DNA of 56,827 nucleotides from contig NW_018408109.1 in NCBI RefSeq assembly GCF_002113885.1, forward strand, positions 1,329,396 through 1,386,222, in the 5' to 3' direction. The DNA comes from Mizuhopecten yessoensis. Lineage: Eukaryota. Position numbers and translations under genes: made by a program. The notes under the pieces were generated by a model. The model saw only the letters and a list, made by a program, of their open reading frames with translations, had not been told where the DNA came from and did not search any database. Of the stretch, positions 1,045 to 43,901 are shown piece after piece (position 1 is the first letter of the stretch; each line of letters begins with the position of its first letter).

Positions 1045-2571
1045 GAGTTAATGTTTCAAACCAAATAAGGTTAAACACTCTAATTACCTGTTATTAAAGA
1101 GTTAATGTTTCAAACCAAATAAGGTTGACTCTTAACCTGTTATTAATTAAAGAGTTAATGTTTCAAATCAAATAAGGTTAAACACTCTAATTACCTGTTA
1201 TAAAAGAGTTAATGTATCAAACCAAATAAGTTTAAACACTCTTTACCTGTTATAAAAGAGTTAATATTTCAAACCAAATAAGGTTAAATACTCTTTACCT
1301 GTTATAAAAGAGTTAATATTTCAAACCAAATAAGGTTAAATACTCTTTACCTGTTATAAAAGAGTTAATGTATCAAACCAAATAAGTTTAAACACTCTTT
1401 ACCTGTTATAAAAGATTTAATGTTTCAAACCAAATAATGTTGACTCTTAACCTGTTATTAATTAAAGAGTTAATGTTTCAAACCAAATACGGTTAAACAC
1501 CCTTAACCTGTTATAAAAGATTAATGTTTCAAACCAAATAAGTTTAAACACTCTTTACCTGTTATAAAAGATTTAATGTTTCAAACCAAATAATGTTGAC
1601 TCTTAACCTGTTATTAAATAAAGAGTTAATGTTTCAAATCAAATAAGGTTAAACACTCTAATTCCCTGTTATAAAAGAGTTAATGTTTCAAACCAAATAC
1701 GATTAAACGCTCTTTACCTGTTATAAAAGATTTAATGTTTCAAACCAAATAAGTTTAAACACTCTTTACCTGTTATAAAAGAGTTAATATTTCAAACCAA
1801 ATAAGGTTAAATACTCTTTACCTGTTATAAAAGAGTTAATGTTTCAAGCCAAATAAGGTTAAGCACTTTTTAACTGTTATAAAAGAGGTAATGTTTCAAA
1901 CCAAATATGGCTAAACACTCTTTACCTGTAATAAAAGAGTGAATGTTTCAAGCCAAATAAGGTCAAACACTTTTTAACTGTTATAAAAGAGGTAATGTTT
2001 CAAACCAAATATGGCTAAACACTCTTTACCTGTAGTAAAAGAGTTAATGTTTCAAGCCGAATAAGGTTAAACACTTTTTACCTGTTATAAAAGAGTTAAT
2101 ATTTCAAACCAAATAAGGTTAAATACTCTTTACCTGTTATAAAAGATTTAATGTTTCAAACCAAATAAGGTTAAACGCTCTAATTACCTGTTATAAAAGA
2201 GTTAATATTTCAAACCAAATAAGGTTAAATACTCTTTACCTGTTATAAAAGAGTTAATGTTTCAAGCCTAATAAGGTTAAACACTTTTTAACTGTTATAA
2301 AAGAGGTAATGTTTCAAACCAAATATGGCTAAACACTCTTTACCTGTAGTAAAAGAGTTAATGTTTCAAGCAAAATAAGGTTAAACACTTTTTAACTGTT
2401 ATAAAAGAGGTAATGTTTCAAACCAAATATGGCTAAACACTCTTTACCTGTAATAAAAGGGTTAATGTTTCAAGCCAAATAAGGTTAAACACTTTTTACC
2501 TGTTATAAAAGAGTTAATATTTCAAACCAAATAAGGTTAAACACTCTAATTACCTGTTATAAAAGAGTTAA
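1045..2571. repeat. Minisatellite, 52-bp unit, about 29 copies (in KIF28-like intron 3)
   Basis: Unit AAAAGAGTTAATGTTTCAAACCAAATAAGGTTAAACACTCTTTACCTGTTAT recurs every 52 bp (e.g. 1261, 1313); two variant units alternate in the 3' half. Confidence 0.97.
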
Positions 2572-5024: not shown

Positions 5025-6165
5025 AGTAAGAGGCTAGATGGGCCTGTGTTGGTCACCTGTTATCCATCACACATCTGTGACTTTCAAATGGTTTCAAGAT
5101 CAGATTTATCTATCTAAAAGGTCCTTAAGGATGATCCGTGACCCACTACAATATGTTTTTTTAAATAACCTCCCCTTAATTGTGTTTTAGATGTAACAAG
5201 TTGGGCAAGGACATAATTCTGTTGAACTGAGGTAGAGCATTTGTATGACAATCAGAAGTCTAGGGTTCAAATCTTCTAGTCTAGTTCTACCGGATTTTAA
5301 CTCTCCGGTTACTGATGCTGATTACATTTAGTTTACTTCATCTTTATTTTTAGTGATTCTTAAATCATTACGCTGGACATCGCAGATTTTTTGTTTAAAA
5401 GTTTTAAGATTATTTATAAAACATTCAAAGGTTGTATATAAATATACATTAGCCCCTGAAATTTAGATCCTGCACCTCATAGCACTTTACAACATTAAAC
5501 TATAATAAACCAGGCCAAGACTCAGGAACTTAGTCCTTTTGCTTATTCAGAAGACATCTGTTAAAGGTTTTTACACATTTGACCCTTATGACATTGAAAG
5601 TAGGCATATATGTGAACAAATTTGATAGCCCTTCATTCTTGAATGCTACAGGCCAAATACGCCTCTTTGTCATTATGTGGTTTAAACGTTTTACAAATTT
5701 GACCCCTGTTGATATGACCTTTGAGAGTTCTAGCAAAATCAATAGCCCTTCATCAAATCATGCTACTGGTTTAACATTATCACCCTATGCCTCTTGGATA
5801 TTTAGAAGAAACTGTTTAAATGTTTTAGCAAATTTGACCCCTGTAACCTTGTACAAAGGTCAAGGTGGTCTTTGATTTAATATAAACTTTACAATTATGA
5901 AACAAGCCGTTACAACTGATGTTAATAAGTCATGTTGGCCCAGATCGAGATGTTAATGTGCAGGGAGTCTTAATGTGGGAGGAAACTGAGTTCCAGGAGA
6001 AAACCCATCTTCCTTCACAGTCCTTCAGTTCCTAGCTTGCTTAATTATACTGGCCACATATCTATCACCACCAAAGACCTTTTGGAATTCAGACGAATTT
6101 GATTAAAAAATTTACAAATTTGACCCCTGGTGTGACCTTGAAAGTATGAGCAAGGTCACAGCAAT
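5025..6165 (+). mobile_element. Degenerate HINE/pearl-like non-autonomous element with internal repeats and SINE fragments
   Basis: Starts AAGAGGCTAGATGGGCCTGTGTTGGTCACCTG; recurring TTTGACCCC...ACCTTG...GGTCAAGG modules at about 5580, 5700, 5835 and 6120; reverse V-SINE core fragment at about 5965-6010. Confidence 0.5.
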
Positions 6166-6912
6166 TAAGCTGTATGTCCTATTGACATGCCAGGTGAGTT
6201 AACTACCTATGCTACTCAATATTTCATTGTTTAACTTATCTTTATAACTTATACATATTACATTGTTTCCCCCTGAAACTTTCCTGTTTCATAGACTATT
6301 ATTATATATAGATTTATGACCATGTAGAGATAATTTCATATTCTGGCCAGCCTGCAGAGAAATAGACAAATATAGTTGTAGCATGCAGGATGTTTTAATT
6401 ATCAATATATATACGTACATTCCCAAGAGATTTTTTGTGTAGCTGACTCAGACTAATACCACTAGGACAATTACAGGTAGAGTCTGCAGTAATCCATACC
6501 TATATATATATATATGTACTCCAGCACCACCACGGACAAATTGTCTGCACGATGTATGGTACAATTGCATTCGGTGATAATATTCTATTGTTTGTTGTTA
6601 AAGTAGCTATGATACCGACCATAAAGATACGTCTCGGTGCTGGCTCTATAAAAATTGTACACCAGGTGATCAGCTTGGTGTTTGTTTTGTATACAAAATT
6701 ACACCTTGTCAGATTCATAGCCGCTAAGCATCCACATACAAAAAATCTATAATCATGAGATTATTGATTTATATGAAATATTGTTTGCCCGACATGAAAC
6801 AATTAATTTTGCGGATGTTGTCGGCTGTGTGATCTACTGATTCACTTTGGTGTCAAAAAGCAACAACCCATATATTGTACATTACCTTGATTCACGCTCC
6901 AATAATGTCCTA

Positions 6913-6984
6913 CAATTATGACTCTGAGTCAAACTTCAATTATGACTCTGAGTCAAACTTCAATTATGACTCTGAGTCAAACTT
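6913..6984. repeat. Perfect 24-bp triplication containing AP-1 sites
   Basis: CAATTATGACTCTGAGTCAAACTT x3 at 6913, 6937 and 6961. Confidence 0.95.
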
Positions 6985-7105
6985 ATTGCCACTGAAATAT
7001 ACATATGAGTGTTATATTTACATGGATAGTATATAACAGGTACATGTAGGCAGTAATAATGAAATTTCTCCCAAACTCAAAACACAGGTGCATTTCCCTT
7101 TTTTT

Positions 7106-9105
7106 TAGGGAAAAGATAATATATCTGCCATTTACCTAACCTATGGAAAGATTATATATCTGCCATTTACCTAACCTAAGGAAAGATTATATACCTGCCA
7201 TTTACCTAACCCAGGGAAAGATTATGTACCTGCCATTTACCTAACCTAGGGAAAGATTACATACCTGCCATTTACCTAACCTAGGGAAAGATTACATATC
7301 TGCCATTTACCTAACCTAGGGAAAGATTATATATCTGCCATTTACCTAACCTATGGAAAGATTATATACCTGCCATTTACCTAACCCAGGGAAAGATTAT
7401 GTACCTGCCATTTACCTAACCTAGGGAAAGATTACATATCTGCCATTTACCTAACCTAGGGAAAGATTATATATCTGCCATTTACCTAACCTATGGAAAG
7501 ATTATATACCTGCCATTTACCTAACCCAGGGAAAGATTATGTACCTGCCATTTACCTAACATATAGGGAAAGATTATATACCTGCCATTTACCTAACCTA
7601 GGGAAAGATTACATATCTGCCATTTACCTAACCTAGGGAAAGATTATATATCTGCCATTTACCTAACCTATGGAAAGATTATATACCTGCCATTTACCTA
7701 ACCCAGGGAAAGATTATGTACCTGCCATTTACCTAACATATAGGGAAAGATTATATACCTGCCATTTACCTAACCTAGGGAAAGATTACATATCTGCCAT
7801 TTACCTAACCTAGGGAAAGATTATATATCTGCCATTTACCTAACCTATGGAAAGATTATATACCTGCCATTTACCTAACCCAGGGAAAGATTATGTACCT
7901 GCCATTTACCTAACATATAGGGAAAGATTATATACCTGCCATTTACCTAACCTAGGGAAAGATTATATATCTGCCATTTACCTAACCTAGGGAAAGATTA
8001 TATATCTGCCATTTACCTAACCTATGGAAAGATTATATACCTGCCATTTACCTAACCCAGGGAAAGATTATGTACCTGCCATTTACCTAACATATAGGGA
8101 AAGATTATATACCTGCCATTTACCTAACCTAGGGAAAGATTATATATCTGCCATTTACCTAACCTTGGGAAAGATTATATATCTGCCATTTACCTAGCCT
8201 AGGGAAAGATTACACATCTGCCATTTACCTAACCTAGCGAAAGATTATATACCTGCCATTTACCTAACCTAGGGAAAGATTATATATCTGTCTTTTAACT
8301 AACCTAAGGAAAGATTATATATCTGCCATTTACCTAACCTAGGGAAAGATCGTATACCTGCCATTTACCTAACCTAGGGAAAGAATATATACCTGCCATT
8401 TACCTAACCTAGGGAAAGATTAAATATCCGCCATTTACCTAACCTAGGGAAAGATTATATACCTGCCATTTACTTAACCTAAGGAAAGATTATATATCTG
8501 CCGTTTACCTAACCAGAGTAGGGAAAGATTATATATCTACCATTTACCTAACCTAGGGAAAGATTTCATATCTGCCATTTACCTAACCAGAGTAGGGAAA
8601 GATTATATATCTACCATTTACCTAACCTAGGGAAAGATTTCATATCTGCCATTTACCTAACCAGAGTAGGGAAAGATTATATATCTACCATTTACCTAAC
8701 CTAGGGAAAGATTTCATATCTGCCATTTACCTAACCAGAGTAGGGAAAGATTATATATCTGCCATTTACCTAATCTAGGGAAAGATAATATATCTGCCAT
8801 TTACCTAACCTAAGGAAAGATTATATATCTGCCATTTACCTAACCTTGGGAAAGATTATATATCTGCCATTTACCTAGCCCAGGGAAAGATTATATATCT
8901 GCCATTTACCTAATCTAGGGAAAGATAATATATCTGCCATTTACCTAACCTAAGGAAAGATTATATATCTGCCATTTACCTAACCTAGGGAAAGATTATA
9001 TATCTGCCATTTACTGTACCTAGGGAAAGATTATATATCTGCCATTTACCTAGCCTAGGGAAAGATTATATATCTGCCATTTACCTAATCTAGGGAAAGA
9101 TTAAA
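7106..9105. repeat. Minisatellite, 35-bp unit, about 57 copies, with higher-order repeats
   Basis: Unit GGGAAAGATTATATATCTGCCATTTACCTAACCTA; variant markers recur every 177 bp and later every 74 bp. Confidence 0.97.
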
Positions 9106-10347: not shown

Positions 10348-10349
10348 TA

Positions 10350-10740
10350 CACTGTATTCATGTAGGGTATGATGGGAAAAATTACAATGTATTAATGCAG
10401 GTCTGAAACAGTTATAATGTATTTATGTAAGACTGGAACAATTACACTGTATTCATGTAGGGCATGATGGGAAAAATTACAATGTATTAATGCAGGTCCG
10501 AAACAGTTATAATGTATTTATGTAAGACTAGAACAATTACACTGTATTCATGTAGGGTATGACAGGAAAAATTACAATGTATTAATGCAGGTCTGAAACA
10601 GTGATAATGTATTTATGTAAGACTGGACCAATTACATTGTATTCATGTAGGGCATGATGGGAAAAATTACAATGTATTAATGCAGGTCTGAAACAGTTAT
10701 AATGTATTTATGTAAGACTGGACCAATTACACTGTATTTT
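10350..10740. repeat. Tandem repeat, 95-bp unit, about 4 copies, each a trimer of roughly 32-bp subunits
   Basis: CACTGTATTCATGTAGGG... starts at 10350, 10445, 10540, 10635 and 10730; degenerate monomers continue left of the MITE (about 9560-9810). Confidence 0.92.
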
Positions 10741-11663
10741 TGTACATATGTTCACGTTCACATAACAATGCATTCATGCTGCAGCCAAACCTATATAACA
10801 CTTGATCATTATATTATTACACATGACAAATTACATAACTGAAGGTAATATATACGGAAAACGAAGGCAGCATTTTGAAAACAAAACTTAGGCAAAACAA
10901 ATCTTTGCAGAAATAGCAAGCCATAATGTGCCGGTCATTTCTGCAACCAATCATAAGGAAATCAATCCCACAGGTGATATACACAAATCAAATTGTGTCA
11001 CATATCAAATACAGGCATTTAATGATAATGTTTTGATTTCAAAATAACTTAAATACAGACAACTCCATATCTAGGTGAATTGTGGGTCATATAATATTTA
11101 CAATAAGCAGTTCACCTGATACACTGTCTGTCAAATGAAAGCAGATGATCATTTTAACACAAAAAAAGTATATCATAAGCTCTCATGTCAGGGCAAAATT
11201 ATTCCAGTCTGGTTAGCTTCAGGACAGCTTAATTACACGCAAAACGTGAGTGTTTATAAAAATTGAAAATTGAAACAAAAACTGTCTTTACAGAAAGTTA
11301 AAATGACAATATTTAGGCATGAATATATGCTGAAATTAACTTTGATCTAGTATGCATCCATTGCAGCAGTAGATTAAATAATACATTATTTATATATTGT
11401 GCAGTTTAATGAAATGAATAAGACGAGAAAAAGTCTGTAAGACATGGAGGACACTTTGGCTTAGTGGTTGACCTAAAAATAGTAACTGTGATCTTGGTGC
11501 TCACCTTGAGAATCTGAAATAGGAACTGATCATCCAAGCTTAAGGTGTAAAAAATGGGAAAAGATTTTTTTCCTGACAAAAAAAGCCAAGTACTATAATT
11601 AAATGTGTATGGCCTTAAAACAACTTTCACTATACATGTCCCTCTTTGAGTTATCTCCCTTAC

Positions 11664-14600
11664 CTGGTATTCTTCGTCTGCCCCTGCATTCGCACGTTTT
11701 TCCTCCACTGCTTTGAACAGCTCGTCACAGAAAATAGGGACGATACCTTTGTTGCTGCCGTAACCGACCATGGAGTAAGATTTGCCACTTCCTGTCTGTC
11801 CATACGCAAACAAGGAACAGTTGTAGCCCTTCCATGCATTGTCCAGCACCCCTCTGCCGAGGTCATCAAACACTTTCGTCTGTAACATAAAAAAAAAAGC
11901 GAATTAATTCTCTATAATTACAGCTCAGGCAAGTATGCTATTAACTGCACCACCTGACCAACCAAGTAAATAGTTGACTGAGATGAGCCTTTTGCATATA
12001 ATATATAATATAACTGTATACTGTACAGTAGAGGAGGATTCCTTTTCCCATCCATCAATAATACTATATACCAGGAAATTATTGCTCTGTGAAACTTTCG
12101 CCCTTTGTGCCCATGAAATCAATTTTTGTCCAATGTTAATTTCGCCCTTCACATTAACTCATTCACCCCTGAAAACAAATTTGAACTCTACCAATTCAAA
12201 GGTTGGAATAGTTCATTATGAAATTTCAGGGGTGAATGAGTTAAATAACTATGTTATTATGCTGTTGACTTATATTCACTGCAATGATAAATTTGCCCTC
12301 AAAATGGAGGGGGGAAAAGGTAAAAGTTAAACTGCGGCAAAAATTTCCCAGTATACACAGATTATATACTTTTTCAAGACAACAGTTACCAGCACTTGTA
12401 ATCTACTTTCTTTACTCTTTCCATTGAGTGCCAATGGTGATATCATATATATAGGATCTTACATGAGTTTCCATTCCATATGAAATTTATGTAATGAGTC
12501 TAAGAATTTTTCAATTTAGCAAACCTCTGGCGAGCTAAAATGAAAAACAAGTTTCATAAATTTCATATGAAATGAAAACAAGTGTGAGATTCTTGTTATC
12601 ACATAATCAAAATTTGTGGCATTTATTCGTGTAAAACGACAATTTTCATGCAATCTTGAAATGTAAAAACCCACCATTTTGACACCAGTGCAAAAGTCTG
12701 TGATGTCATGTACTTGTCCAAGACGTGATGTCACAATTGAAACAATTGAAACTTACAAGCAATCACAGGGCTGATAGGTCATATTACATGGGTTAATACG
12801 CAAATAAATATAGCATGGGTATATATATATTCACTGGATAACACAGTACATTATGTGATAAATTTTACTGTTTCCCGGAACTGTCACAATATAATTTAAC
12901 CTAGCTTAGAATTTTTTGACAAATGTAAAAATCAATGTACTGAATCAAAATGAAGAGCCTAAAACTGAACAGGAATTAAAATGATAGAGCTTCATCAGAA
13001 AATTTATATCAACAACTTTAAATTTGATAGCCTAGTTTATAATCACAATGTCAAAGAAATATTATTATTCAAAGGTCTTATGTAGAGATATTGATTTGAG
13101 ACAATAACAAATTTGGCCCACATGACCTAAAATAGGTTGTCAATGATCATTTAGGGTTCTTGAGAGAAGTGTTTAACACATCTGACCCTTTTAAATTTGA
13201 AAGATAGTCAGGGTAATTTCTTCGAACAAAGTTGATGGACCTTCCTTCAACCCAGGAAGCCATATGTCAAATATCATGACTCAAGGTTTTATGGTTTTTA
13301 GAAGAAGTTGTTGGAAGAAAAAGTTGACAATGGCCACCAAGCCAAGTGTTCTACAATTTAGCATTCATGTAAGCTCACAGGCACCTGAACTCTGGAATAT
13401 TCTGTATACTATTAGCTATCCTGATGGGCAGGAATTTTTTAGTGTTCCAGTCAGACACAAATTTTAAAATTGAATAAACTTGAATATCAGAACAATTTAA
13501 CAAAAAGAAAATTCAAAGACTTTGAAAATCTGAGTGAACAACATGCTTGGCAGACAGAGCTTTCAAACTCACAGAATGTCGTGATATTTACCCTATGGTT
13601 CTAAATATAACTTTCTCATTAATAATGTATACATGTATAACCGTTCTGAATAATCAAACACACTTCGACAGCACAGCATGAGTTGTCCTTAAACGGTACA
13701 GCGATTACAAAGTTATTGGTGTGAGAAATCTGTCAATAACATGGTTCATCAACCAGGTTTTAACTCATTCACCCCTGAAGATTCATAATGAACTATTCCA
13801 ACCTTTGAACTGGAAGAGTTCAAATGTGTCTTCAGGGGTCAATGTCAATTTCCTAAAAGTGAACTCGGATAGTATTGAAAATATTTACCATTTCTTGTAA
13901 TTCTCTACCAATAAAAGTTTCATGAATATCACTTGGTTTCCTGTTTATCTCGGTACACAATAAATCATATATAAAAATTATTCAAATTTAAATACACATT
14001 TATTACAATTTAAATAAGACAAAAATTAAATAAACATAAACCATGCAGGCAAATCATGGGAACCCATCTTTAACTAAAAAGAAACATTTATGTAATTCAA
14101 TAAATATCATAACTATGTGTACCGTATTTGCCATAACTAAAGTGCCTGATCGATTTGCTGAAGTGAATTGCTTTAGATAAAAAACACAGGTTGTGGCAGT
14201 AAGTAAAATGCTGTTTTTTAACAGTATTTCATTCAATAATCAGGCAATGTTATTTTATACATGCAGTTTGCGAGGGATCGGAAAACACGCTTGGAACTTA
14301 TATTAATTCCTCTCCTAGATGCTGTTTATCAGACACAACTGAATGATACATCCAAAATTGTTTTTTTCTAAAATGCCAGAAAACACTCTTAATTGATTGT
14401 GAGCCTGTAGCTCTAGGTGTCGGGGATAAAAAGAAGAATCCTACATTTTGGTAACATTTATATATATGCCACAGTTCCTACTCACAAACTGGCAAGTAGC
14501 CAAAATATGGATATAAATACATTAATTACGAACTGTACAATTTGCCTGACCTATTACTTACAGTGCTACCAGACTTAAAATGTATATCCTTGTATGGGAA

Positions 14601-22770: not shown

Positions 22771-23314
22771 TAAAGTCTTATCGGTTTCACTGATTCGATG
22801 TACATGTATATAATGAAATATTAACTGCTAGTAGTCATATACATGTAGATGGAGTCAATGCTGGCTGTATTTAACTTGTCAGTTATTACTATGTAGAATT
22901 TTTAACTGTTTTAATGGTCAATTATTTACAGAGCCTATGCTGGTCAAATTTACCAATTTATAACCTAGTTTACCCTGCATTGGCCAGTACTGGTCCGATG
23001 TTTTTGTTCTGGACAGTTCATATATGGGTCAATATAGTAAGTCTGTGTACTATTATTGCTACACTGTATACAAAAGTTTGGCTATTTTTGTAATGGACAG
23101 TTGTGTGTTTGGAGATTTTATTTGTGATAAAAAAAAACACGAGAGAAATTAAATATATTATTTATTATTTTCATGTCCTATCGTTTTGCTAATCCTCGAC
23201 TCATCTTACGTTGTAGACTTAGGTCAGAAACTCTTACAGCGATATAACACAGGCAATGGGAATGGTCTTATTCGACACACATGGCGCAATAAGGTCTGAT
23301 GAGCCTGTCTGATC

Positions 23315-23995
23315 CGACACCCTGTGGGACAACACGTTTGTCAGATTAACTTGTCTAAAACGACACACTGTGGGACACATCATGTTTGTCAGATTAACCT
23401 GGCTAAAACGACACACTGTGGGACACAACATGTTTGTCAGATTAACCTGTCTAAAACGACACACTGTGGGACACAACACGTTTGTCAGGTTAACCTGTCT
23501 AAAACGACACACTGTGGTACACAACACTTTTGTCAGATTAACCTGTCTAAAACGACACACTGTGGGAAACATAACGTTTGTCACATTAGCCTGTCTAAAA
23601 CCACACACTGTGGGACACAACACTTTTGTCAGATTAACCTCTCTAAAACGACACACTGTGGGACACAACACGTTTGTCGGATTAACTTGTCTAAAACGAC
23701 ACACTCTGGGACCCAACACGTTTGTCAGATTAACCTGTCTAAAACGACACACTATGGGACACAACACGTTTGTCAGATTAACCTGTCTAAAACGACCCAC
23801 TCTGGGACACAACATGTTTGTCAGATTAACCTGTCTAAAACGACACACTGTGGGACACATCATGTTTGTCAGATTAACCTGTCTAAAACGACCCACTCTG
23901 GGACACAACATGTTTGTCAGATTAACCTGTCTAAAACGACCCACTCTGGGACACAACATGTTTGTCAGATTAACCTGTCTAAAACGACACACTGC
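23315..23995. repeat. Minisatellite, 48-bp unit, about 14 copies
   Basis: ACACACTGTGGGACACAACACGTTTGTCAGATTAACCTGTCTAAAACG tandem; produces 16-aa periodic ORFs in three frames. Confidence 0.97.
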
Positions 23996-26479: not shown

Positions 26480-27216
26480 ATACTTCTTGCGCTCCACCAT
26501 TCCAAGATGTCCTTGTACACAAAATCGGATTACTACCCCGGACAAACTTTTTCAAAAGTAAAGGTCAAAGGTCAAGGGATAGGTCACAATGACCCAATTA
26601 TTTCAATCTCCACTCCGTCATCACTAGATGTCATTGTACACCAAATCTGCTAATTAGAGGTGAAAAAGTATAGAAGATATGTCTCGGTCAAACATTTTCA
26701 AAGGTGAAGGTCAAAGGTCAAATCTTAGGTAACATGGACCTTCTTTTTGCACTCTGCTATCTGCCATCCCTAGATGTCATTGTACACCAAATCTGGAAAC
26801 TCGAAGTGAAAAAGTATAGAATATATGCACCGGACACACATTATCCAAGGTGAAGTTCAAAGGTTAAGTCTTAGGTAACAGTTACCTAATTCTTGCACTC
26901 TACACTCCGTCACCACAAGATGTCCTTATAAACCACATCTGGTTACTCCAGGTGCAATAGTATAGAAGATATGCCCCGGACAAACCTTTTTCAAAAGTTA
27001 AAGTCAAAGGTCAATACATAGGTCGCAGTGAGGTTATAATGGCCTTCTTCTTGCACTCTGCACTTCGCCATTCAAAGATGTCCTTGCACACCAAATCTGG
27101 TTACTCCAGATGAAATAGTATAGAAGATATGTCCCGGACAAACTTCTCGGACGGACGGGCGGACGGACGGACAACGCAGCCCATACCAATATACGCCCTG
27201 TCGGACGACGGGCGTA
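26480..27216 (+). mobile_element. HINE/pearl-like (Helentron-associated) element with internal array of about 146-bp repeats
   Basis: AGATGTC.TTGTACACCAAATCTG at 26506, 26626, 26772, 26918 and 27076; (CGGA)n microsatellite at about 27148-27172; terminal palindrome CGCCC.GTC..ACGACGGGCG. Confidence 0.82.
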
Positions 27217-31100: not shown

Positions 31101-32805
31101 CCCGCAAAACCCATATCACACCCCATTCGGAAAAAAAAATCATTTTTCAATATTTCAAAAATGAAAATAAATCATAAGATAGTAGTTTTTATTAGTAAGT
31201 ATGTAATAAACAGAATAAAACACGCCTTTTTCCATATCACACCCAGTATCAACCCGAGACTGCAATATCAGCCCGCGGGCCGATATGGAAAAAGGCGTGT
31301 ATTATTCTCTATATAATGTATACGTATGTCGTAGGAACCCTCCCAGAATCAGAAACTTTCTTCTTTGTCCGCTGTTGAGAAAGAAGAACATTGCAATAGT
31401 TGGGATATTTGTTTTTTTCAATCTCTAACCCTTTACTAGTTAAAACCAAACACACGGGTCTCTTGGCATACGAACTGTTTGTTTACCCATTTCTACCGCC
31501 GATACTTAAGAGTCCCTGTTCCACTGCAGGCAGATCACTAGAGAGTTCCACTGAAGTTTTGTGGTATTTACGTATACCGTAACCAGTAACTGTAGCGTGA
31601 GTTGGGCCAGATAGCGCAGTTACATGTAGTTAGAGCGACAGTATAACGTTTTGAAGTTCAGGGTTCGAATCCTACATTTAGTACACATGTATAGCAGCGC
31701 TGATATTTTAAACACCTAACGCTGTTGTTGATTTACATTTTGTATCTTTCATCTTACATTTTTTTTTAAATTTAATAGTCCTGTAAGGTATGTTTTTCTT
31801 TTTCCGAAATTATGTGTGAAAGCTGTAGTTATGGCGGGAAAACAGTTCTAAAATACAGTTACGGTTTTTCGTAATGGAACAGGGATCCTTAAATGATAAT
31901 CCTAAAAGCATAATTATCCGAGCTGATAAAAATCGTTGCAGCTCCAGAAGGCAAAGCTTTCCTGTGGGGGTACGCCCTGTACTACTTCACCTACTCCACG
32001 TGGGAGGGGCGTGTCATGTACCTCGAGGATTTGTACATGTCACCGACCTACAGGGGGCGTGGCACAGGCACCAAACTTTTTCAAGCAGTAACACAGGTAC
32101 AATCTGGCTTTTTAATCTTTTTCTGTGATTCATTTGACATTCTGAATATAACTTCAATGCATTCACCCTGTAATTTCATAATGAACTATTCCAACTTTTG
32201 AAAAGGAAGAGTTCAAATGTGTTTTTAGGGGTAAATGAGTTGAGTTTTCAACTAGCACTACTGTAGGAGGCTATGTGTTTGCACTATGTGTATATATTCT
32301 GTCTTCGCTTTTGTCCAAAATGTATAAATCTCAGGCATACAGTCGATTTCATTTTCTCTTCAATCTGTTAAAAAATTTGGTAAGGAGGTATATATAGAGA
32401 TTGCGGAACGCCTTTTAATGAATGAAGGTAACTGTGACCTAATTTATTGAAACTATGATTGTTCCACAATCAATTGCCTTGTTATATTGTAGTTGCCGAC
32501 ATTAAACACGACGCTGAACAAGTAAACAAAATAGCATTGCCTGTTTCATTTCTGAAAATTACGTGAATATAATTTGTGAGATTACTTTTTGCATCGATAT
32601 AATTGTATTGATATCGATTCTCTGTTTGAGTTAGGTTGGTGTAGAAAAGGATTGTCAGAGGATGCAGTGGGTGGTCCTCAACTGGAACAAACCATCTATA
32701 GATTTCTACAAGTCACGAGGAGCATGGGACGTCACTGCCAAGGAGAACTGGAATATATTCCGAATGGACCGACCGGAGTTGGAACAGCTATCTAAGGCAA
32801 ACTAA
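28176..32805 (+). CDS. SAT2: Diamine/thialysine N-acetyltransferase (SAT1/SAT2-like GNAT), copy 1, 171 aa
   Basis: Exons 28176-28241, 28952-29003, 29666-29737, 31942-32096, 32635-32805, all GT-AG and in phase; ELAVYE, DGFG, YSTWEG, YLEDLY, YRGRGTG (acetyl-CoA motif), WNKPSIDFYK. Confidence 0.95.
29405..29630 (+). mobile_element. tRNA-derived V-domain SINE in SAT copy 1 intron 2
   Basis: A box GGTGGCGCAGTGG, B box GGTTCGATC, core GTGGGTTTTCTCCAGGTACTCTGGTTTCC. Confidence 0.88.
29880..30536 (+). mobile_element. Degenerate SINE/LINE 3' portion with (CAAA)n tail
   Basis: GTAGGAGGCGACTGA motif at about 30310; ends GGACGTAAAACCATATCAAACAAACAAACAAA; similar tail at about 18030-18105. Confidence 0.45.
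30955..31312. mobile_element. Double-palindrome non-autonomous element (Crypton-like architecture)
   Basis: TTTATTACATACTTACTAATAAA ... TTTATTAGTAAGTATGTAATAAA inverted pair, then ACACGCCTTTTTCCATATC ... GATATGGAAAAAGGCGTGT; internal CCCATATCAGCCC repeats. Confidence 0.7.
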
Positions 32806-34249
32806 TATACCGGTCTTTAGGTCAAGAACATTTGTAAGCGTTGATCTTGGACGTGCTGGATACGCACACTAGTGCTCGGAACCGTCTATTCAGACAGTTT
32901 TCCTATATAATTAATCAATGGAAAATTATCTCTTTATGTAATAAGGTGGCAAAAATATCTAAACATCTCTACGTCATTTTAACTTAAGAACATTTAATTC
33001 GTAAACATGAAATAAAAACTTTAGAATTGCTGATAGGACTTTTTTGATCAATAGAAATATTTTATAAATGCCTATATATAATAAAAGATATTATACATTA
33101 ATGTAACTATCGCTTACAAGATTTTACCGACTGTTTGTACATGTATCTTTTCTATATGAATAGTATCTTATGAATTTCAATGATAACATGACAGAGTTCT
33201 TGCTACGTGGTAAATTTATTATTTATATTACAATGCACAGCTGTAAGTTAAGTACTTAATATAATATCATATTATATTTCGAAATGTTTATATCTGGGTT
33301 TTTTTCACTTTCATTCAACAATACTTTATTAAAAACTATGTATCACATTTTGTTTACTATATAAACAACATTATTACGATATCGGTAAAACAAACAAACA
33401 AACATATGCAGAAGGAGTAACAAGAACACGGATTAAAAAGCTGTACAAGGATGAGCAACAGATGAATTCAAAAGGGGAAAAAGATATTAAAAATATAGAA
33501 CAAATATCACTCCAGATCCCAATATTTCGGCCTCCTAGCCGCTTCCAGGGCGAAAGACAGATTGATTCAAGTTACTTTCATTTCCCTTGTTTTAAGTCCG
33601 TCATTTTCTCTACTCCCGAAAAAAAGCAAGATGGACGTTACTTGAATTTATCGTTGACTAGGAGGCCAGGAGGTGGAAATATTGGGATTTAGAGTGACAT
33701 TTGTTCTGTTTGTACATGGATTGTTCTACAGCCAACCAATATTCAGCTGTATCTAGATTCATTGCCATATTAATAATTTAAGTAATTTAAAAAAAAGTGC
33801 ATAATTTGTATGCTGTGTTTTTTTAACCGGAAGTGGTCATGTCGTTTACAGTTGCTATCCCTGTCCCACTGCACTTTCTTTAGTGAACTTCCGTTGTCCA
33901 GTTAGCTTAAACGGTTAGAACTATAGTATAACAACAGCTGAAGACCAGGGGTTAGATCCCGGGTTAGCCTCACTTAACTCTATGCACTCAAAACACTCTT
34001 GTTGATAACAGTTTGTTTGTTTTATCTTTCCTATTTTTCATAAAAGTCCCGCAAGGTACGGATTATTTTTGTAATAAATATCAGCTCTATCGTCATGCCG
34101 GCATTACAGTTTTTGGCAGTGATGCGGAGATTTTAAACAAAGTATCAATGATTCAATGCGTCGTGATCCTATAAGGAAGCTTGACACGATACTGCCATGT
34201 CCATGTAAACCTTCTCTCTGTTTCACAAGCATTACTTCTGCGTGGATGC

Positions 34250-35958: not shown

Positions 35959-36002
35959 NNNNNNNNNNNNNNNNNNNNNNNNNNNNNNNNNNNNNNNNNN
36001 NN
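35959..36002. other. Assembly gap (44 N)
   Basis: Run of N. Confidence 1.
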
Positions 36003-37403
36003 TCTGCAATAACATCAAGATTTTCATTGTATTTGGAATTTGGATCAGAATATATTATTTCTGAAGACATATTCAGTATGCCACAGGCAGTGGTTTTTTT
36101 TTATGTTTTTCGTTTTGTTTTTTGCTTCTTTTTTATATGGCGGATTCGTCAGCATATAATAATATATATAAGCGACTACGCGCCAGTACACAACACACGT
36201 ATTTGTAAGTTACCTGACTTTTATTGTAATATTTTTTACTAAAGAAATGGGCATTTTGGCAAGATTTTTGCTATATATCTTGAACTTAAAATTCATACCA
36301 CGTACGTACGCGTCCTGTTAAAGGAACAAAAATGAGTTATTTTTTAGGAGATTCTGTGTGTATCTAAAAATCAACATAACGAATATGATATGTATGAAGA
36401 TGAAATTCTTTATGAAAGTCGCATCGATGCAAAATTTAAGATCACTTATCACTGCATCCTCGATATCCAGGGGTTACGCCCACTTTTGCTCTCTACAACC
36501 CTCGAATATGTCATAGCAAACTTGATGGCACGAAGATAGCTGTTCGATTGGTCTCAGGTAAAAATTCCTGACCAATCGCTCGGCATCACCTGTCCTTTGA
36601 AGATTATAAGGGAGAGACGCCCGACTTCAAAGCCTGTCGATTGTTACCGTTACGTGACGGCGAGATTCTTTTGATGTACATAAAAGGGTCGAACTAGTTT
36701 TCTTGTCTTATTAACAAGAGGATCACACTGAGCCTTTATCAAAGACACAAACAACGCAAACACCAAATTAGCTACTATGATATTTTTATTTTTTAAGGTT
36801 TGGCGATTATATGGCCACGGCTTCATACAGATGTGGTTACCGACTCTAAATTAGAGTCATAGGGCAAACCAAACTTAGATAACTGCAGATCAACTTGATC
36901 AAACTTGTGCAAAATTGCAAAACTTGGGACAATTGAAATAAGGACAAATAAAGTGAACACTGGGAACAGATGTACACCCCATTTTCCCCACTTTACCAAT
37001 TACTTATTTGACAATAGTTGGTCCCATTAGAAATATTTGTAATTTAAGTGAACACTGGGAACAGCTGTACACTTCAAATTAATTATGCTATTAAATTGCA
37101 AATACAATTTGTGAACTTCACAAACTTATTTAAAGTGAAACTGTTCATTGAATGACAACTGGTCAATATGGTAAAAAATTTCACTGAAGCGGTACTGGTG
37201 TTGCCTCAAAAGACCGCCACATGGCAATGCCTGCAGTCACACAAAAAGGTAGCAGGCATAGCCAACGCCACCATACCGCAAAATTCAAATTAAACATCAG
37301 ACACCCGCTACTACTGTGAGGACAAGCAACTCAGTAGTAAGACTGGGCACCTCATGCCGCCACAGCCAAATAATCGTAATCGCAATTCAAACCTGACAAC
37401 AAT

Positions 37404-38018
37404 TTAGATATCAATACTTTTTGAAAGAATATTGCCAAGATCCTGCTGCAAATGATACAAAAACATTTCATTGCCTAACTCGGACAGATGGACCTTGTCC
37501 ATAAAAAGATCAGGGCAATCTTCCCGTATCTCAGGGTATCTAATATAACTGCCTCCTATGGCTGTGAAATGACTGGCCACTTTGCTATTGACCCTCACCC
37601 TGGCCCTATCAACAGCCACATGAACAATTTCATTTCGCCACTCCAACCGAGGTAAAATTTGTGACCAAACAAATTTTGTCTCTGGCATCAACTTCATCAA
37701 ACTGTCCATTGTTTTTAATATAGAGTGGCGGAGGTCACAACTCACTAGTTGCCCAAGATCATTCCCACCACAGTGAATCACCATAATGTGGGGGGTGTCC
37801 TCGACCGTCAGCAGATGTCTAACGAAAGGCTCCAGTTCTCTCCAACGCAGACCACCTTTCCCTTGCCACCATACACTGGCATGGTAGCGGCTCAGCCCAA
37901 GATTTACTCCATCCCCTGACTTCCTTGCATGGAAAAAGGCCCTTTTCACTAATGAGGACCCCACGATCCAAATACGGTTTCTGACATCTGAAAGTCTTAA
38001 ACTGACAATCAGATGCAA
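37404..38018 (-). CDS. SGNH/GDSL hydrolase-like ORF of the Ngaro-type element
   Basis: IWIVGSSLV (block I), WQGKGG (block II), IHCGGNDL (block III), DKVHLS (block V); uninterrupted 204 codons, no ATG before block I. Confidence 0.85.
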   Translation of the reverse strand: MHLIVSLRLSDVRNRIWIVGSSLVKRAFFHARKSGDGVNLGLSRYHASVWWQGKGGLRWRELEPFVRHLLTVEDTPHIMVIHCGGNDLGQLVSCDLRHSILKTMDSLMKLMPETKFVWSQILPRLEWRNEIVHVAVDRARVRVNSKVASHFTAIGGSYIRYPEIREDCPDLFMDKVHLSELGNEMFLYHLQQDLGNILSKSIDI

Positions 38019-38183
38019 AGCTGACAGGTGATCTCTAGAAAATTTAACTAAAATAAACTGTAGAAATACATTTATACACTTGCCTTGGTAGCTCCAAAAT
38101 ACATTTAAAATATTTTAAATTGATACAATGCTGAGTAATGTTCACCCAGACTACTGCAAGGTACTGTATGAGTCTTACAAGCC

Positions 38184-39167
38184 TCAGCACAACTCCATGG
38201 TTGGGACTCGAATGTATGACTTAAACACCTGTGATTCCCATCTACCCAGTTTTTTTATTTCATCATCAGACATACCAACTGCAGAAGCCCTAGTAGCAGC
38301 GCCTATTCTAAAAGAGTGTGATTTATAACGCTCTGTAGATACTCCAGCTGTATTCAGAGATTTTTTTAACATTGCATTAAATTGATATTTTGTTACCGGT
38401 AATCCACCAAAATGACAAAAAAATGGACCTGGTTTACTTGGCCTGACTGCCAGGAATTGTTTTACCAACAAAACTGGGCATATTGGGGGCTTGGCTACTG
38501 GCAAACATACTGTCACACCTTTACTTAACTGATCGGTCTTGGAACTAGACAATGACAATTGAACACTTGATGCAGATAACACAACATTATTAATACACAG
38601 TGTATGGGAGGTAACTCCCAGCTTATCAACTACTAATTCCCCAACTCTGAAAAACCCAAAAAATGCGACAGAAAAAAGTGTAGAATACAATATTTGTTCA
38701 TACTTTGAACAACAAACCACGTGAAGGGCCTGGAGAAGCTTCACCAACAATTCAGGAGTAACAGGCAACCTGACATCTACCCGTTTTGACAACCTTTGCA
38801 TTCCTGCTAACATTTTTCTGATGATAAAATTTTGTGTATTATCCTCTTGGCCTAACAATTTACACTTAAAAGCTATACCCGACAGATAGGATTTTGCTGT
38901 GCTGGGAGCATAATTGCCGACAGACAGATATGATATAAACTTGATAATATCTTGCAATGGTGGAGGCCAGGATGTGGCGAGATGATACTGTGAACGGAAA
39001 GCCTCGAATACATTTATACTTGCAACATATGCTTTAGTAGTATTCTCAGAAATAGAAGCTGAAATCAATTTCGTAGTTTCAGCTTGGAGATCAACATTTG
39101 GAATGCTACTGGGATTGCTGCCGGCTCTGGATCTGCCATTGGTGCTAGTTGCCGGAACCGAGCCCAC
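38184..39167 (-). CDS. Tyrosine recombinase of the DIRS/Ngaro type
   Basis: FFGFFRVGEL (R), SKTDQ (K), HSFRIGAAT (HxxR), LGRW.S (W) and YIR (catalytic Y); 327 codons without stops; track start is GTG. Confidence 0.93.
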   Translation of the reverse strand: MGSVPATSTNGRSRAGSNPSSIPNVDLQAETTKLISASISENTTKAYVASINVFEAFRSQYHLATSWPPPLQDIIKFISYLSVGNYAPSTAKSYLSGIAFKCKLLGQEDNTQNFIIRKMLAGMQRLSKRVDVRLPVTPELLVKLLQALHVVCCSKYEQILYSTLFSVAFFGFFRVGELVVDKLGVTSHTLCINNVVLSASSVQLSLSSSKTDQLSKGVTVCLPVAKPPICPVLLVKQFLAVRPSKPGPFFCHFGGLPVTKYQFNAMLKKSLNTAGVSTERYKSHSFRIGAATRASAVGMSDDEIKKLGRWESQVFKSYIRVPTMELC

Positions 39168-39290
39168 TGTAGACGAGATATAGAATCTACTACACTGTTA
39201 TGAATACCCCGAATATGGACAGCCTTAAATTGTATATTACCAAACATGGCATGTAACACAAGTGGACGGACTAACTGCATGACCCTTTTC
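39065..39290 (-). pseudogene. C-terminal fragment of DIRS-type RT/RNase H ORF overlapping the recombinase
   Basis: KRVMQLVRPLVL...FKAVHIRGIHNSVVDSISRLQW (HIxGxxNxxADxLSR-like motif); similarity ends at about 39290. Confidence 0.85.
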
Positions 39291-39873
39291 AAAAATAGCG
39301 AAAATTTAGATACAAAAACTTAAAATTTGTTTTGACAAAATATGATTATGCTTACCATGGATTCTGAGATAGCAAGAGGAAGTTATAGGGGAGATAACTC
39401 TAACATGAATATGCTCCGCTAGGCTTAGGTAACAACCAACCAATAAATAAAACCTAATTTGTGCTTAGATAAATCAATTTATTTTTTTACATTAAATTTT
39501 ATTAATTTTGTGTTGACATATTACAGGGGTGTAGAGAGCAAACGTGAGCGTAACCCCTGGTTACCGATGATGCTATCACTGCAAAAAAAAGAAGACAACA
39601 ACAACTAGCCTATAGGCATACTATGATTGCAACAAAATACCGGGTAACATATTTGAACTGACACTAAAAGCAAGCTTGGTGAGAGGGTGACTAACATCGG
39701 TAAAGACCGATCGGGTTTAACGTACATGTGTGTGTGTGGGATATATTCCAGGGCCCTCAACTATTATCACTGATATACAAGTGTGACGCGTACGCTTTAG
39801 TATACTGGTATATTTTAACCCCGCGCCCAGAAGTAGGTCTGAAACACACTTTTATCCACAAGTGACATTAAGA

Positions 39874-42800
39874 ATGTTGGATTACAACATCAGACCAGCT
39901 GTAGATAAGGATTGTGAGGAAATAACTCGACTGAGACAGGTAAGACAAAATACACACGTGTTCACCTCAACGTGTTTGTGTGCACAGGGTGATGACACAA
40001 AAACATGACCTGGAGTTTTTAGTACCGGAACAATTCGCTTAAAGAAGTTGTTGCTTTCTTGAATAAAATATAATTTCATATCAACTGTTTTATATATGTT
40101 TGAAAACAAAATCACATATAGGACCAGGGATGTCCACTACACCTCCCTGATAGGACACATAGGTTCATTAATATTTCCCCCATCTTATATTAAGCGTGGT
40201 CTCTTCCCTATGGCTATGCCCGATATGATACGCGGTGTTGTCTATCTGAAGCTATTTGAATGAATACAGAATTCACTGCGAGTACATTCAATGTTCAGCT
40301 GTGTTATCGATGTTAAAAATGTGTTAAAAGACAATACCAATACTATAACCGATCCTAAGTCTCAGAACCGAAATACACATCAAGGAAATCGAAAAATATA
40401 GAAGATAAATTATGTATAAAAATAACAAAATATGGTATACAAATGCATATCGCTTCTTTCAGGAGTTAGCAGATTACAGCAATGTATTAGAGAAAATGGG
40501 AATGACAGCTGAAAGTATGTATTACTATTTTTGTTTTGTTTTTAATCAAATTGTAACTGATCAATAAATAATCCATATATCGGTATATTTGAGGTTTGTG
40601 TTGTGTCATAGTAGATTTTTGTTGACACCTCCTCAAAGCACCCAGACACCAAACGGTGTCGGAGAATGCCACGTTTTAATATAGTAGTGTGCTCTGGCCC
40701 CACACTAGACTTTTATCTATCAAAATGTCTAAGTCCGGTGTTAGGGCCAGAGGAATCTCGGGCTAGAGCAGTATATGCTTACCAGCATCCTCAATACTCC
40801 AGGGGTTACTCTCATTTACGCTCTCTGTACCCCTGGAATATGTCATAGCAACATCGAAGGCTTGTTGATGAACCAAGAAGACTATTTCGATCCTTTGATG
40901 TACATCAAAAGAATCTCGCGGTCGCGTAACGGTAAAAATTGGCTGACTTTGAAGTCGTGTGTCGCCGCTTTGTAATCTTCAAAGGACAGGTATCAGCCTA
41001 GCGATTGGTCCGGTTTGTTTTACCTGAGACCGATCTCCAGGGTTGCAGAGAGCGTACGTGAGCGTAGCCGCTGGATATTGAGGATGAATTACCAGGACAA
41101 CAATACACGAATTGTGATATTATCAGTAGTTTACTCATAGAACAGACACATCAGCATATAATGTGGTCATATATTTTTCAACTGTTTTTTTGTGACAAGT
41201 CTTTAAGCTGTTAACACTTTTTACAGAGCTGAGAAGAGATGGTTTCGGCGAGCAGAAATGTTTCGAATGTTTTGTTGTTGAGGATACTACAACAAAAAGT
41301 AAGTTTGGTTTAGAATTTTGAAAAAGTGTATGGCTTCCGACAGAAATTATAATGTTGTAACTGACTTATGATTTTTAAAATAATCGATATTGTAAATCTC
41401 AGTTAAAACATCAATAGAAATAATATTATTGAAATGTGTATTGAAAATAACCGTTTTTGTCCATCAAGTTTTGTTGCATACCCTTTATATCTCCTGACTT
41501 TAAGAAGTAAAACCCCAACAAAATAAACTGTCACCTCATTTTGTTGATAGCTATTTGAATCAAATACTGTAGAAGGAAATGCTAGTGTCATCTTGAATAT
41601 TTTAAACATTTTGTATAATCGCTATCACAAGAGAGTTGTTATTTAAGGAACATAATTTATTTTTTCAACATTTATGAGGTCATGACAACATTGTGTTCTT
41701 GACAAATTCCATTTATCGCGTTACATGATGTTCATAATGGGCGGCATCGCGGCGGACGGTGAACAGAGCTACATGTGCAGTACTAGTACATCATGTGATA
41801 AGGTCGAATATGTTATGTAAAAATAACTCATTTTCGTCCATGGGTCTAAACATACAGAATGTAAATATATACAAACAAATTCATCTTTCTCAGTTGTTAT
41901 TAAAGATATAATACTTTAAAAAAAAACACATTTTTTTTTTACTATTTCTGTTACAATTAACTTTAAGGATATACTAATTTGATATTGTTATCGCTAAGAA
42001 TATACCTTTTTGTTTGTGATTTATCTAAAAGATTTGTGTTTGTAACAATTCACAGTAAAAAGTATACCATTTTGTGAAAATGTTAATGTTTGACAAATGT
42101 TCGTAGCAAGGTTGGTTTGCATTGTATGTACTTACGTGAATTAATAAAAACATGAAAACAACAACAATTACATCAACAAAAACAAACAACAAATCACAAA
42201 TAAACGTTTATATGTTTTAGGAAATAATATACACGTGTGATGGGAATAGGACTCAAAAGAATAGTGTGGAGATTATCTGCTTTGTCTTACAATGTAAACT
42301 AGGAAATAATGGCGTGTAAACAAGTATTAACGACTGCAATCTTGATATTGTTACCGCATTGTTTCAATTAAACACTCCCATTCCTCTCTCGGAACACGTA
42401 CGTTCAATTTTCGTATACTTGTCCATGATATGGGTGTGCATAGACCATATCCCGGACCTGCCAATAATCGCCCGGCGCTTGCCATAGCCATTGCACTTCC
42501 GGTTAACACTTTTTCTGAAATATCACGTGTCAGATACAGGACAAGTGAAACAAGCTGAATATGCGTATTCATCTGTATTTGTAATGTTGTTCATTGTGTT
42601 TTATTTCTAAGGTAGAATTTGATTACATTGCCGAAGAAATTTAGATTTGGTGTATGTTTTATGTGTTGCTGCTGATGATGTTGATGCTACAGCGCAGTAT
42701 ATGATAAAACGGTTATCATATTACTATGTCCATATCCTACTCGGTATCAGTCCCCGACCGATTCTAGCCCTCGGGCCACTAAGCATGTATCCTCTTTCTA

Positions 42801-43901
42801 CTGTGAGAGTTCAATTATAATTATGATAACAACCTCAATATTAATACTGGTGATGATTGTTACAGCTGCAGATGGCAGGGCTTTCCTGTGGGGATACGCC
42901 CTGTATTTCTACACCTACTCTACATGGGTTGGGCGTGTCTTATTCCTGGAGGACTTGTACGTGTCAGCGGTCTACAGAGGGCGTGGCATCGGGTCCAAAC
43001 TTTTTCAAACAGTAGCAAAGGTAAAACTGTGACGGTATTGCCCCTATCGAGCACTCCTAAAATGTACTAGTGTGTGTATTCGAACGCGCATTTACTTTGT
43101 TTACGTGTATTACGTCTACCAGACATCCATAAAAAGTGACCTTTTTTTCATGTTTAGTTTCCTTAAACCGGCTTTTCAAGAATTTAATGTGATATTATGT
43201 CATTTGACCTTTATGAAACTATTTGTCACTAACTGGAATTACCGAAGCTTACTGTGTTTGTATTCCGTCCAAACGTTTGCTGTCCTTCGATCAGTTCCAA
43301 AATGTTGTCTGGGTCAGGTTTGGTACACCTTGGCATCACTTACTGTTGTCTCATATTAGAGTGTAAACAAAATATAACATGGAATTTTAATTTTGTTCAT
43401 TAACGTGTGGGGGACTATGAAATGCATAAAATGTATGGGGTAAACTTCCCAACCACGTGGGGTTTATCCAGGTACTCCGGTGTCCTCCCGCATTAAGACC
43501 CCTGCGCGTAACATCCGGGCCAACATGAGTGATTAATATACAAGTTAATTAATATAACTTTTTTCATAATTGTGGTAAGACATAAATAAAGTTTATATAT
43601 AAATGTAGATATTTTGAACGATGTTGGGTCTTGGAAGCATAATCTATGTACTCTGATTACGTGCAAATACGTTTTTTCACATATTGCTTAAGCACTAATG
43701 ATATCTAACTCTATCTGTGTCTGTTTGAATTAGGCAGGTATAACGCAGGGGTGTGAAAGGATGAAGTGGGAGGCCTATAGCTGGAACAAACCATCTATAG
43801 ACTTCTATAAGAACCGAGGAGCTTGTGACGTCACTGCGTCAGAGAACTTGAATGTGTTTCAGATGAATCGACAAGAGTTGGAACACTTATCTAAGTCATA
43901 A
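39874..43901 (+). CDS. SAT2: SAT1/SAT2-like acetyltransferase, copy 2, 170 aa
   Basis: Exons 39874-39939, 40463-40514, 41227-41298, 42866-43020, 43734-43901; same phases as copy 1; YSTWVG, FLEDLY, YRGRGIG, WNKPSIDFYK; open reading. Confidence 0.93.
40786..41086. mobile_element. Empty 301-bp MITE with about 50-bp TIRs and degenerate 9-bp TSD (SAT copy 2 intron 2)
   Basis: CATCCTCAATACTCCAGGGGTTAC... / ...GTAGCCGCTGGATATTGAGGATG; flanks GCTTACCAG / AATTACCAG. Confidence 0.88.
43425..43595 (+). mobile_element. 5'-truncated V-domain SINE
   Basis: CACGTGGGGTTTATCCAGGTACTCCGGTGTCCTCCC...GGGCCAACATGAGTGATT...AATAAAGTTTA matches the 17675 and 29405 copies. Confidence 0.8.

What the first reader, a model, noticed from the sequence alone, without database searches (positions are those of the whole stretch)
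36455..39572. TIR DNA transposon carrying an intact tyrosine recombinase plus SGNH hydrolase cassette from a Ngaro-like retroelement
Seen: two halves of a MITE (about 50-bp TIRs, flanks TTATCACTG/CTATCACTG) enclose 2.7 kb (about 36781-39513) holding an RNase H tail, a stop-free 327-codon YR with all catalytic residues and a stop-free SGNH ORF. An empty sister MITE at 40786-41086 shows the uninterrupted junction (GCTATGACATATT). The insert lacks gag/RT and shows no retroelement terminal repeats, so normal YR integration of a full element does not explain it. Inference: either a Pack-type capture making a cut-and-paste vehicle for a recombinase/esterase pair, or nested insertion followed by deletion.
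Basis: partly seen in the sequence, partly recalled or inferred. Interest (0 to 1): 0.75.

Follow-up and report, generated by a model that had tools for sequence, protein, structure and literature searches.

The report
Young broken retrotransposon inside old MITE
A shortened copy of a still-young jumping gene sits inside a much older, common small repeat, with its own normal ends and at its usual kind of target site, so this is most likely ordinary nesting and not a new cut-and-paste carrier for a recombinase and an esterase.

Summary
The parts are real, but the junctions and the story are wrong. The insert runs 36736-39501, not 36781-39513. It is an internally deleted copy (about 3.57 kb of gag/RT/RNase H lost) of a young gag-RT/RH-YR-SGNH retrotransposon family. 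It has the family's fixed ends and the family's preferred target motif. Taking it out leaves a whole 352-bp MITE with no loss, interrupted inside its right TIR. The insert differs by 0.4% from a full-length copy; the MITE by 11.6% from its nearest sister examined. Both junctions and the deletion junction occur once in the assembly. Open YR and SGNH frames are expected at this age (74% under neutral change), and older copies are broken. Verdict: nested insertion, likely by the element's own recombinase; Pack-type vehicle not supported. Read contigs could not confirm the junctions or show an empty allele. The one odd point is at family level: complete copies show neither Ngaro split repeats nor DIRS inverted repeats, and seven derivative types break at nt 205-215. 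The scan noted a similar truncated YR+SGNH insertion on other DNA (e1-9549026).

The parts
36446..36454 (+). left 9-bp target duplication of the host MITE (TTATCACTG)
   Evidence: 8 of 9 alike with the right copy
36455..36735 (+). host MITE, left part: 75-bp left TIR (36455-36529), interior, and the inner 4 bp of the right TIR
36736..39501 (-). internally deleted YR retrotransposon copy, 2766 bp, with both family ends (starts TAAAATTT, ends TTTGATAA)
36736..36738 (+). TTA trinucleotide, the element's own 3' end (TAA on its strand); same triplet at 39502-39504 comes from the target
36736..37219 (-). 3' terminal module 'B' (484 bp), shared with short non-coding derivatives; AATAAA at 36785-36790, 49 nt from the end
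37404..38114 (-). SGNH/GDSL-like esterase frame, 236 codons, GSS / GGND / DKVH motifs, no Met before the GSS motif; acceptor-like AGs at 38035-38058
   Evidence: (PF13472, E 0.0016, below cut-off)
38184..39197 (-). tyrosine recombinase frame, 337 codons, catalytic motifs present, first Met at codon 129
   Evidence: (PF00589, E 1.5e-5)
39065..39289 (-). C-terminal tail of the RT/RNase H frame
   Evidence: matches the end of the 574-aa frame of full-length copies
39287..39289 (-). deletion junction with 3-nt AAA microhomology; about 3.57 kb of 5' region, gag, RT and most of RNase H missing; single-copy
39290..39501 (-). 5' terminal module 'A' of the retroelement (nt 1-212)
39502..39572 (+). host MITE, outer 71 bp of the right TIR (13 of 71 mismatches to the left TIR)
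39573..39581 (+). right 9-bp target duplication (CTATCACTG)
40786..41086 (-). empty sister MITE in the opposite orientation, with internal deletions; 9-bp flanks 7 of 9 alike

Best explanation
A 352-bp MITE with 75-bp TIRs and a 9-bp target duplication holds, inside its right TIR, an internally deleted copy of a young gag-RT/RNaseH-YR-SGNH retrotransposon, which was most likely put there long after the MITE by the family's own tyrosine recombinase acting in trans. Shown: the insert has the family's fixed ends, lies behind the family's preferred target motif, removed no MITE sequence, made no target duplication, is 0.4% from a full-length copy and is single-copy as a composite. Inferred: a circular or folded cDNA intermediate recombined at the TAA end joint with the AT-rich TTAA of the TIR; the 3.57-kb deletion probably arose during reverse transcription (about 60%) rather than later in the chromosome (about 40%); the two frames are open because the copy is young, not because they are selected, and without gag they probably lack a start.
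For: Fixed ends: 26 of 27 distinct 3' flanks follow TTTGATAA and 28 of 30 distinct 5' flanks precede TAA (not all flanks are independent insertions). Target rule: T at -3 in 26 of 30, A at -2 in 28 of 30, A/T at -4 in 30 of 30; the window has TTAA. Empty site restored without loss, 352 bp against a 354-bp family majority. Ages: 11 substitutions in 2554 bp plus 5 in 215 bp against L021; MITE 34 of 351 (9.7%) from the majority of 24 sisters, 11.6% from the nearest, TIRs 13 of 71 apart. Junction patterns: left 2 hits (own, plus one 2-mismatch hit with no MITE or element around it; reversed control 5), right 1 hit, deletion junction 1 hit. No MITE hit in loci L002-L052, no element hit in 29 other MITE loci. 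Neutral simulation: both frames stay free of stops in 74% of trials with 11 substitutions, 61% with 17 (substitutions only). Against L021 the two frames show 2 synonymous and 4 non-synonymous changes; copies under about 94% identity carry stops or frameshifts in YR, and even 99%-identical L033 has a YR stop. Paper passages: YR integration leaves the element flanked by the junction trinucleotide, one from element, one from target (PMC7192593); Ngaro insertions into TIR-bounded elements, including into TIRs, and gag-less variants are described (PMC8547959).
Against: No contig listed in 5 public runs spans either junction or the deletion junction, and none shows an empty allele; the tables were cut and repeats break contigs, so this is undecided. 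The assembly is fragmented with gaps, searches scored only 40 candidates each, so copy counts are lower bounds. The A module carries 4 private changes in 215 bp against about 5 in 2554 bp of the body, which I cannot explain. Six coding differences are too few for a real dN/dS test.
Confidence: 0.93

Rival explanations
1. Pack-type composite: the MITE captured the YR and SGNH genes and has moved, or moves, as one cut-and-paste unit carrying a working recombinase/esterase pair.
For: TIRs and a 9-bp duplication do enclose the insert; both frames are open with catalytic motifs. A true YR-in-TIR composite is known in a fungus (MarCry-1_FO, four copies over 97% alike; PMC3212892 passage).
Against: Single copy. 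The target duplication already has a mismatch and the TIRs differ at 13 of 71, including the outer 12 bp, while the insert is 0.4% from its sisters, so the last MITE jump predates the insert. The insert cuts the right TIR at 71 of 75 bp. No pair among 28 sister MITEs is closer than 4.3%, so no recent MITE activity was seen in this sample. Neither frame has a Met ahead of its N-terminal motifs.
Confidence: 0.03
2. Misassembly near the gap: the composite is a chimera of repeat reads.
For: An N gap lies 453 bp left of the MITE (35959-36002); both parts are repeats; no listed contig spans the inner junctions.
Against: Both junctions fall exactly on the family's natural ends and restore the MITE to the base, with the family's target motif. 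Independent contigs join the left flank to the MITE start in 4 of 4 DNA runs and the MITE end to the right flank in 2 of 3 DNA runs. An assembler has no shared sequence to join MITE and element at these points.
Confidence: 0.03
3. The deleted copy is a member of a mobilised non-autonomous YR+SGNH subfamily that supplies recombinase to others.
For: A second copy with both ends, no gag/RT and a similar content exists (L033, break 205 to 3650), and its junction and flank appear in RNA run X15 contigs. Gag-less Ngaro variants form subfamilies in Cafeteria (PMC8547959).
Against: This deletion junction occurs once; L033 has a different junction and a stop in YR.
Confidence: 0.05

Closest known systems
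Hydrolase-bearing Ngaro-like retrotransposons (Xenopus DIRS-53_XT / DIRS-54_XT; PMC9210276, passages and section 8 read)
   Same: Four frames gag, RT/RH, YR, SGNH in this order, overlapping, no methyltransferase hit.
   Different: No A1-B1A2B2 split repeats in any complete copy held; one old short copy (L040) has a B|A joint. The paper also found no repeats in the DIRS-54_XT consensus but did in two of its copies, so absence can be a sampling matter.
Ngaro insertions in TIR-bounded virophage elements of Cafeteria (PMC8547959, section 11 read)
   Same: YR retrotransposon nested in a TIR element, sometimes in the TIR; 5'-deleted gag-less variants; solo end-to-end AB pieces.
   Different: Host here is a small non-coding MITE hit once, with no sign of targeting.
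MarCry-1_FO, a Crypton YR fused to a Mariner transposon (PMC3212892, passages read)
   Same: A YR gene between TIRs and a target duplication.
   Different: MarCry has its own DDE transposase and four copies over 97% alike; this has no transposase and one copy.
Pack-MULE / Pack-TIR elements (recalled, no call)
   Same: Long TIRs and 9-bp duplication around coding sequence.
   Different: The cargo is a transposon with its own intact ends, younger than the TIRs, not captured host gene pieces.
DIRS1-like elements (PMC7192593 passages)
   Same: YR integration without target duplication, at a trinucleotide shared with the end joint.
   Different: No inverted terminal repeats, no internal complementary region, no methyltransferase.

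Membership tests
Ngaro (SGNH type) | gag, RT/RNase H, YR frames in order | tested here: met
   Full-length copies L021, L022: frames of 338/331, 574, 337 aa; RVT_1 E 8e-14, Phage_integrase E 1.5e-5; the first frame has no Pfam name and is called gag by position
Ngaro (SGNH type) | SGNH hydrolase frame after YR | tested here: met
   PF13472 at E 0.001-0.002, below cut-off; motifs present
Ngaro (SGNH type) | no adenine methyltransferase domain | tested here: met
   No Dam hit at E up to 0.5; frame ends with RNase H
Ngaro (SGNH type) | split direct repeats A1...B1A2B2 | tested here: not met
   One A and one B in each of L021-L024, L026, L027, L033, L034, L037 and the window; longest exact direct repeat 15-20 bp in 5 of 6 copies, 59 bp inside an insertion in L024. 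B|A joint once exact in the assembly. Collapse in a short-read assembly is not excluded for the youngest copies.
Ngaro (SGNH type) | RT clade membership | not tested
   No labelled reference sequences were available from tools; nearest named relatives are uncharacterised bivalve proteins at 52-58% identity
DIRS1-like | inverted terminal repeats and internal complementary region | tested here: not met
   Longest exact inverted repeat 11-13 bp; best matches to the ends no better than shuffles (46 and 156 of 200 reach them)
YR retrotransposons in general | integration without target duplication at a short shared core | tested here: met
   Empty site restored with no duplication beyond the shared triplet; no long duplication in the copies except L033 (29 bp)
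Pack-TIR / composite DNA transposon | TIRs and target duplication enclose the cargo | tested here: met
Pack-TIR / composite DNA transposon | transposition of the unit after cargo uptake (copies with same junctions, new flanks) | tested here: not met
   age contrast
Pack-TIR / composite DNA transposon | cargo under purifying selection or expressed from this locus | tested here: inconclusive
   2 synonymous, 4 non-synonymous differences; RNA run X15 contigs match the family and continue into intact RNase H, not this junction
Mutator-like MITE (label recalled) | 9-bp target duplication and long TIRs | tested here: met
   Of 29 sisters 25 had a findable right end: 10 exact 9/9, 3 at 8/9, 6 at 6-7/9, 6 at 4/9 or less; TIR 75 bp
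Mutator-like MITE (label recalled) | autonomous partner with a MULE transposase and the same TIRs | not tested
   No search was run

The most novel reading that the evidence does not exclude
The parent family is a YR retrotransposon that inserts as a single A-genes-B unit with no terminal redundancy: its first 210 bp are added to the cDNA by a template switch, so premature switches give copies like this one that keep nt 1-210 and resume anywhere downstream, and the B|A joint is resolved by the recombinase into gene-bearing A-genes-B and solo A-spacer-B insertions. That would be a third end architecture beside Ngaro split repeats and DIRS ITR/ICR, and this insert is one of its replication errors.
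Probability: 0.3. Interest if true: 0.55.

Novelty: new member of a known kind. Interest (0 to 1): 0.2.

Why it matters
As a composite it does not matter: transposons nested in transposons are common, and this one is a single dead-end event. It is a clean example of a YR integration site, since the pre-insertion sequence can be read from sister MITEs. If the family truly lacks split repeats, the fixed 5' breakpoint and the solo A-spacer-B pieces give a direct handle on how YR retrotransposons rebuild their ends, a step that was still a model in the one experimental paper read (PMC7192593).

Tried and rejected
Reads: two lays on 5 runs (X1, X2, X6, X8, X15; all contigs) gave no listed piece across the inner junctions and no joint for an empty allele; tables were cut, so neither presence nor polymorphism was shown. 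Contig depth over module B was only about 1.1-1.2 times the coding body in three DNA runs, a weak hint against collapsed split repeats; depth is no copy number. Internal complementary regions: weak inverted matches near nt 170-200 and near -470 looked like a split ICR but are at shuffle level. Folding: module A z 0.23; the 3' 495 bp z -2.68 from local hairpins; the natural B|A joint in L040 folds with the two ends paired but z only -1.0 to -1.4, so not support. Long target duplications as a family trait: only L033 has one. Splicing as the cause of the 205-215 breakpoints: no GT donor at the break (sequence). Three 3-mismatch hits to the B|A joint pattern (L147-L149) hold no A or B sequence. 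Sequence look-up in earlier findings gave nothing. Five paper searches listed no description of a young YR retrotransposon family with fixed ends and no terminal repeats; subscription reviews and Repbase were not searchable and supplements were not opened, so this is not a claim of absence from print.

Full report
Observation. The window holds the two MITE halves, the 9-bp flanks, the RNase H tail and open YR and SGNH frames on the minus strand. YR motifs FFRVGE, SKTDQ, HSFR, GRW and SYIR and SGNH motifs GSS, GGND and DKVH are present. The YR frame has 337 codons with its first Met at 129; SGNH has 236 with its first Met at 111.

True limits of the insert. A search of the own genome with the insert gave 81 matches from 40 scored of 116 candidates, several at 99-100%. 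The element is 36736-39501. Over all loci held, 26 of 27 distinct 3' flanks follow TTTGATAA and 28 of 30 distinct 5' flanks precede TAA (some flanks share an origin). The four target bases before the element read (A/T)TA(A/T/C); the window has TTAA.

Parent family. Longer fetches show full-length copies of about 6.0-6.4 kb with four frames: a gag-position frame, RT/RNase H (574 aa), YR and SGNH. The window copy joins nt 1-215 to the RNase H tail at a 3-nt AAA overlap, losing about 3.57 kb. It differs from L021 by 11 of 2554 bp in the body and 5 of 215 bp in the 5' part. The nearest named RT relatives are uncharacterised bivalve proteins.

Host MITE. The left half drew 3739 candidates, 40 scored, best other copy 89%. 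With 36736-39501 taken out, the halves give a 352-bp element against a 354-bp majority of 24 sisters, with the site GAGCCT|TTAATTTTG intact. The family TIR is 75 bp; the insert lies 71 bp from the right end. The window MITE is 9.7% from the majority and 11.6% from its nearest sister; its TIRs differ at 13 of 71 and its duplication at 1 of 9. A 9-bp duplication is the rule (10 exact and 3 at 8/9 among 25 with a findable end, of 29). The 28 sisters compared are 4.3% or more apart; they were picked by likeness to this copy, so younger subfamilies may exist.

Is the composite mobile? The right junction pattern hit once, the left twice (the second a 2-mismatch chance hit with neither element nearby; reversed control 5 hits), the deletion junction once. 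No MITE lies in element loci L002-L052 and no element in 29 other MITE loci. The MITE's mutations predate the insert by roughly ten- to twenty-fold in divergence. So the last cut-and-paste event came before the insertion.

Are the frames selected? Against L021 there are 2 synonymous and 4 non-synonymous changes, too few for a ratio. With 11 random substitutions both frames stay open in 74% of 3000 trials. Among 13 family loci, YR is unbroken only in the copies at 97% identity or more, one 99% copy has a stop, and older copies have stops or frameshifts. Youth explains the open frames. With gag gone and no early Met, expression from this copy is doubtful (inferred); acceptor-like AGs precede SGNH, which fits an earlier unchecked note on Gag-SGNH splicing (e1-9167458) that I did not test.

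Reads. Sixteen of 19 listed runs hold part of the stretch. All laid runs were contigs. They tie the left flank to the MITE start (4 of 4 DNA runs) and the MITE end to the right flank (2 of 3) but list nothing across the inner junctions and no empty allele. RNA run X15 covers the family's RNase H-YR-SGNH region and runs on into intact RNase H; this is family-level and may be DNA.

Mechanism. Shown: fixed ends, target motif, no loss, no duplication, age order, single copy. From papers (passages): DIRS-type integration is thought to use a trinucleotide at the end joint and leave it at both ends (PMC7192593); Ngaro elements nest in TIR elements and make gag-less variants and solo AB pieces (PMC8547959); Ngaro has SGNH and split repeats (PMC9210276; PMC3783388). 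Inferred: a family YR in trans recombined the TAA joint of a deleted intermediate with TTAA in the old TIR.

Family-level oddity. Complete copies carry one A (nt 1-210) and one B (last 484 bp) and no split or inverted repeats, so I do not file the family as Ngaro, though it has Ngaro gene content. Seven derivative types break at nt 205-215 and resume at different places: window, L033, L026, L037, L098, L111, and an A-spacer-B subfamily counted once; an eighth joint at nt 210 appears in 4 of 4 DNA runs. At least six others break elsewhere (L047, L048, L088, L104/L109, L151, L159/L160). One old short copy, L040, has B|A-spacer-B, like the 3' end of an Ngaro; the joint occurs once exactly in the assembly. 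Either a master with split repeats is hidden by assembly gaps or collapse, or the family inserts without them. The shared breakpoint is why I favour deletion during replication. Weak ICR-like matches and junction folding did not pass controls.

Verdict. Ordinary nesting of a young truncated Ngaro-like copy in an old MITE (0.93). Pack-type vehicle 0.03. Interest 0.2; the family's end structure is the only lead worth a follow-up.

Noticed in passing
L033 (G000:C1335, element at locus 4586-7511): A second gag/RT-less copy with both ends is flanked by an exact 29-bp direct repeat, unlike all other copies checked; its junction and flank appear in RNA run X15 contigs.
   Followed up: partly
L040-L045, L099, L114, L121, L126: Non-coding subfamily A(210)-200-bp spacer-B(484); the spacer is absent from full-length copies; L099 is 98.6% alike to the young family in A.
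   Followed up: partly
L040:1176-2156: Only exact end-to-start joint of the family in the assembly; the two ends can pair as a hairpin, z -1.4.
   Followed up: partly
L094, L095, L106, L112; also L049-L052; L159/L160: Groups of loci share the element together with its flank (96-99.8% over up to 1.5 kb for the first group): duplication after insertion or uncollapsed haplotypes.
   Followed up: no
window 31950-32150 and 42850-43020 (+): Two paralogous GNAT acetyltransferase exons flank the nested element; whether it lies in an intron was not settled.
   Followed up: partly
window 39287-39501: Four private changes in the 215-bp A module against about five in the 2554-bp body; unexplained.
   Followed up: partly
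L054 and L079: MITE copies inserted in or beside other copies of the same MITE.
   Followed up: no
L034:609-3540: A 2.9-kb insertion at nt 77 of a young family copy.
   Followed up: no
window 1045-2572, 7106-9103, 10348-10738, 23304-23994, 26536-27143: Tandem arrays of 52, 35, 95, 48 and 146 bp.
   Followed up: no
window 11409-11903 (-): Frame with a GQTGSGKS motif, kinesin-motor-like by recall.
   Followed up: no
window 33497-33707: Small element with 44-bp inverted arms, 86% complementary.
   Followed up: no
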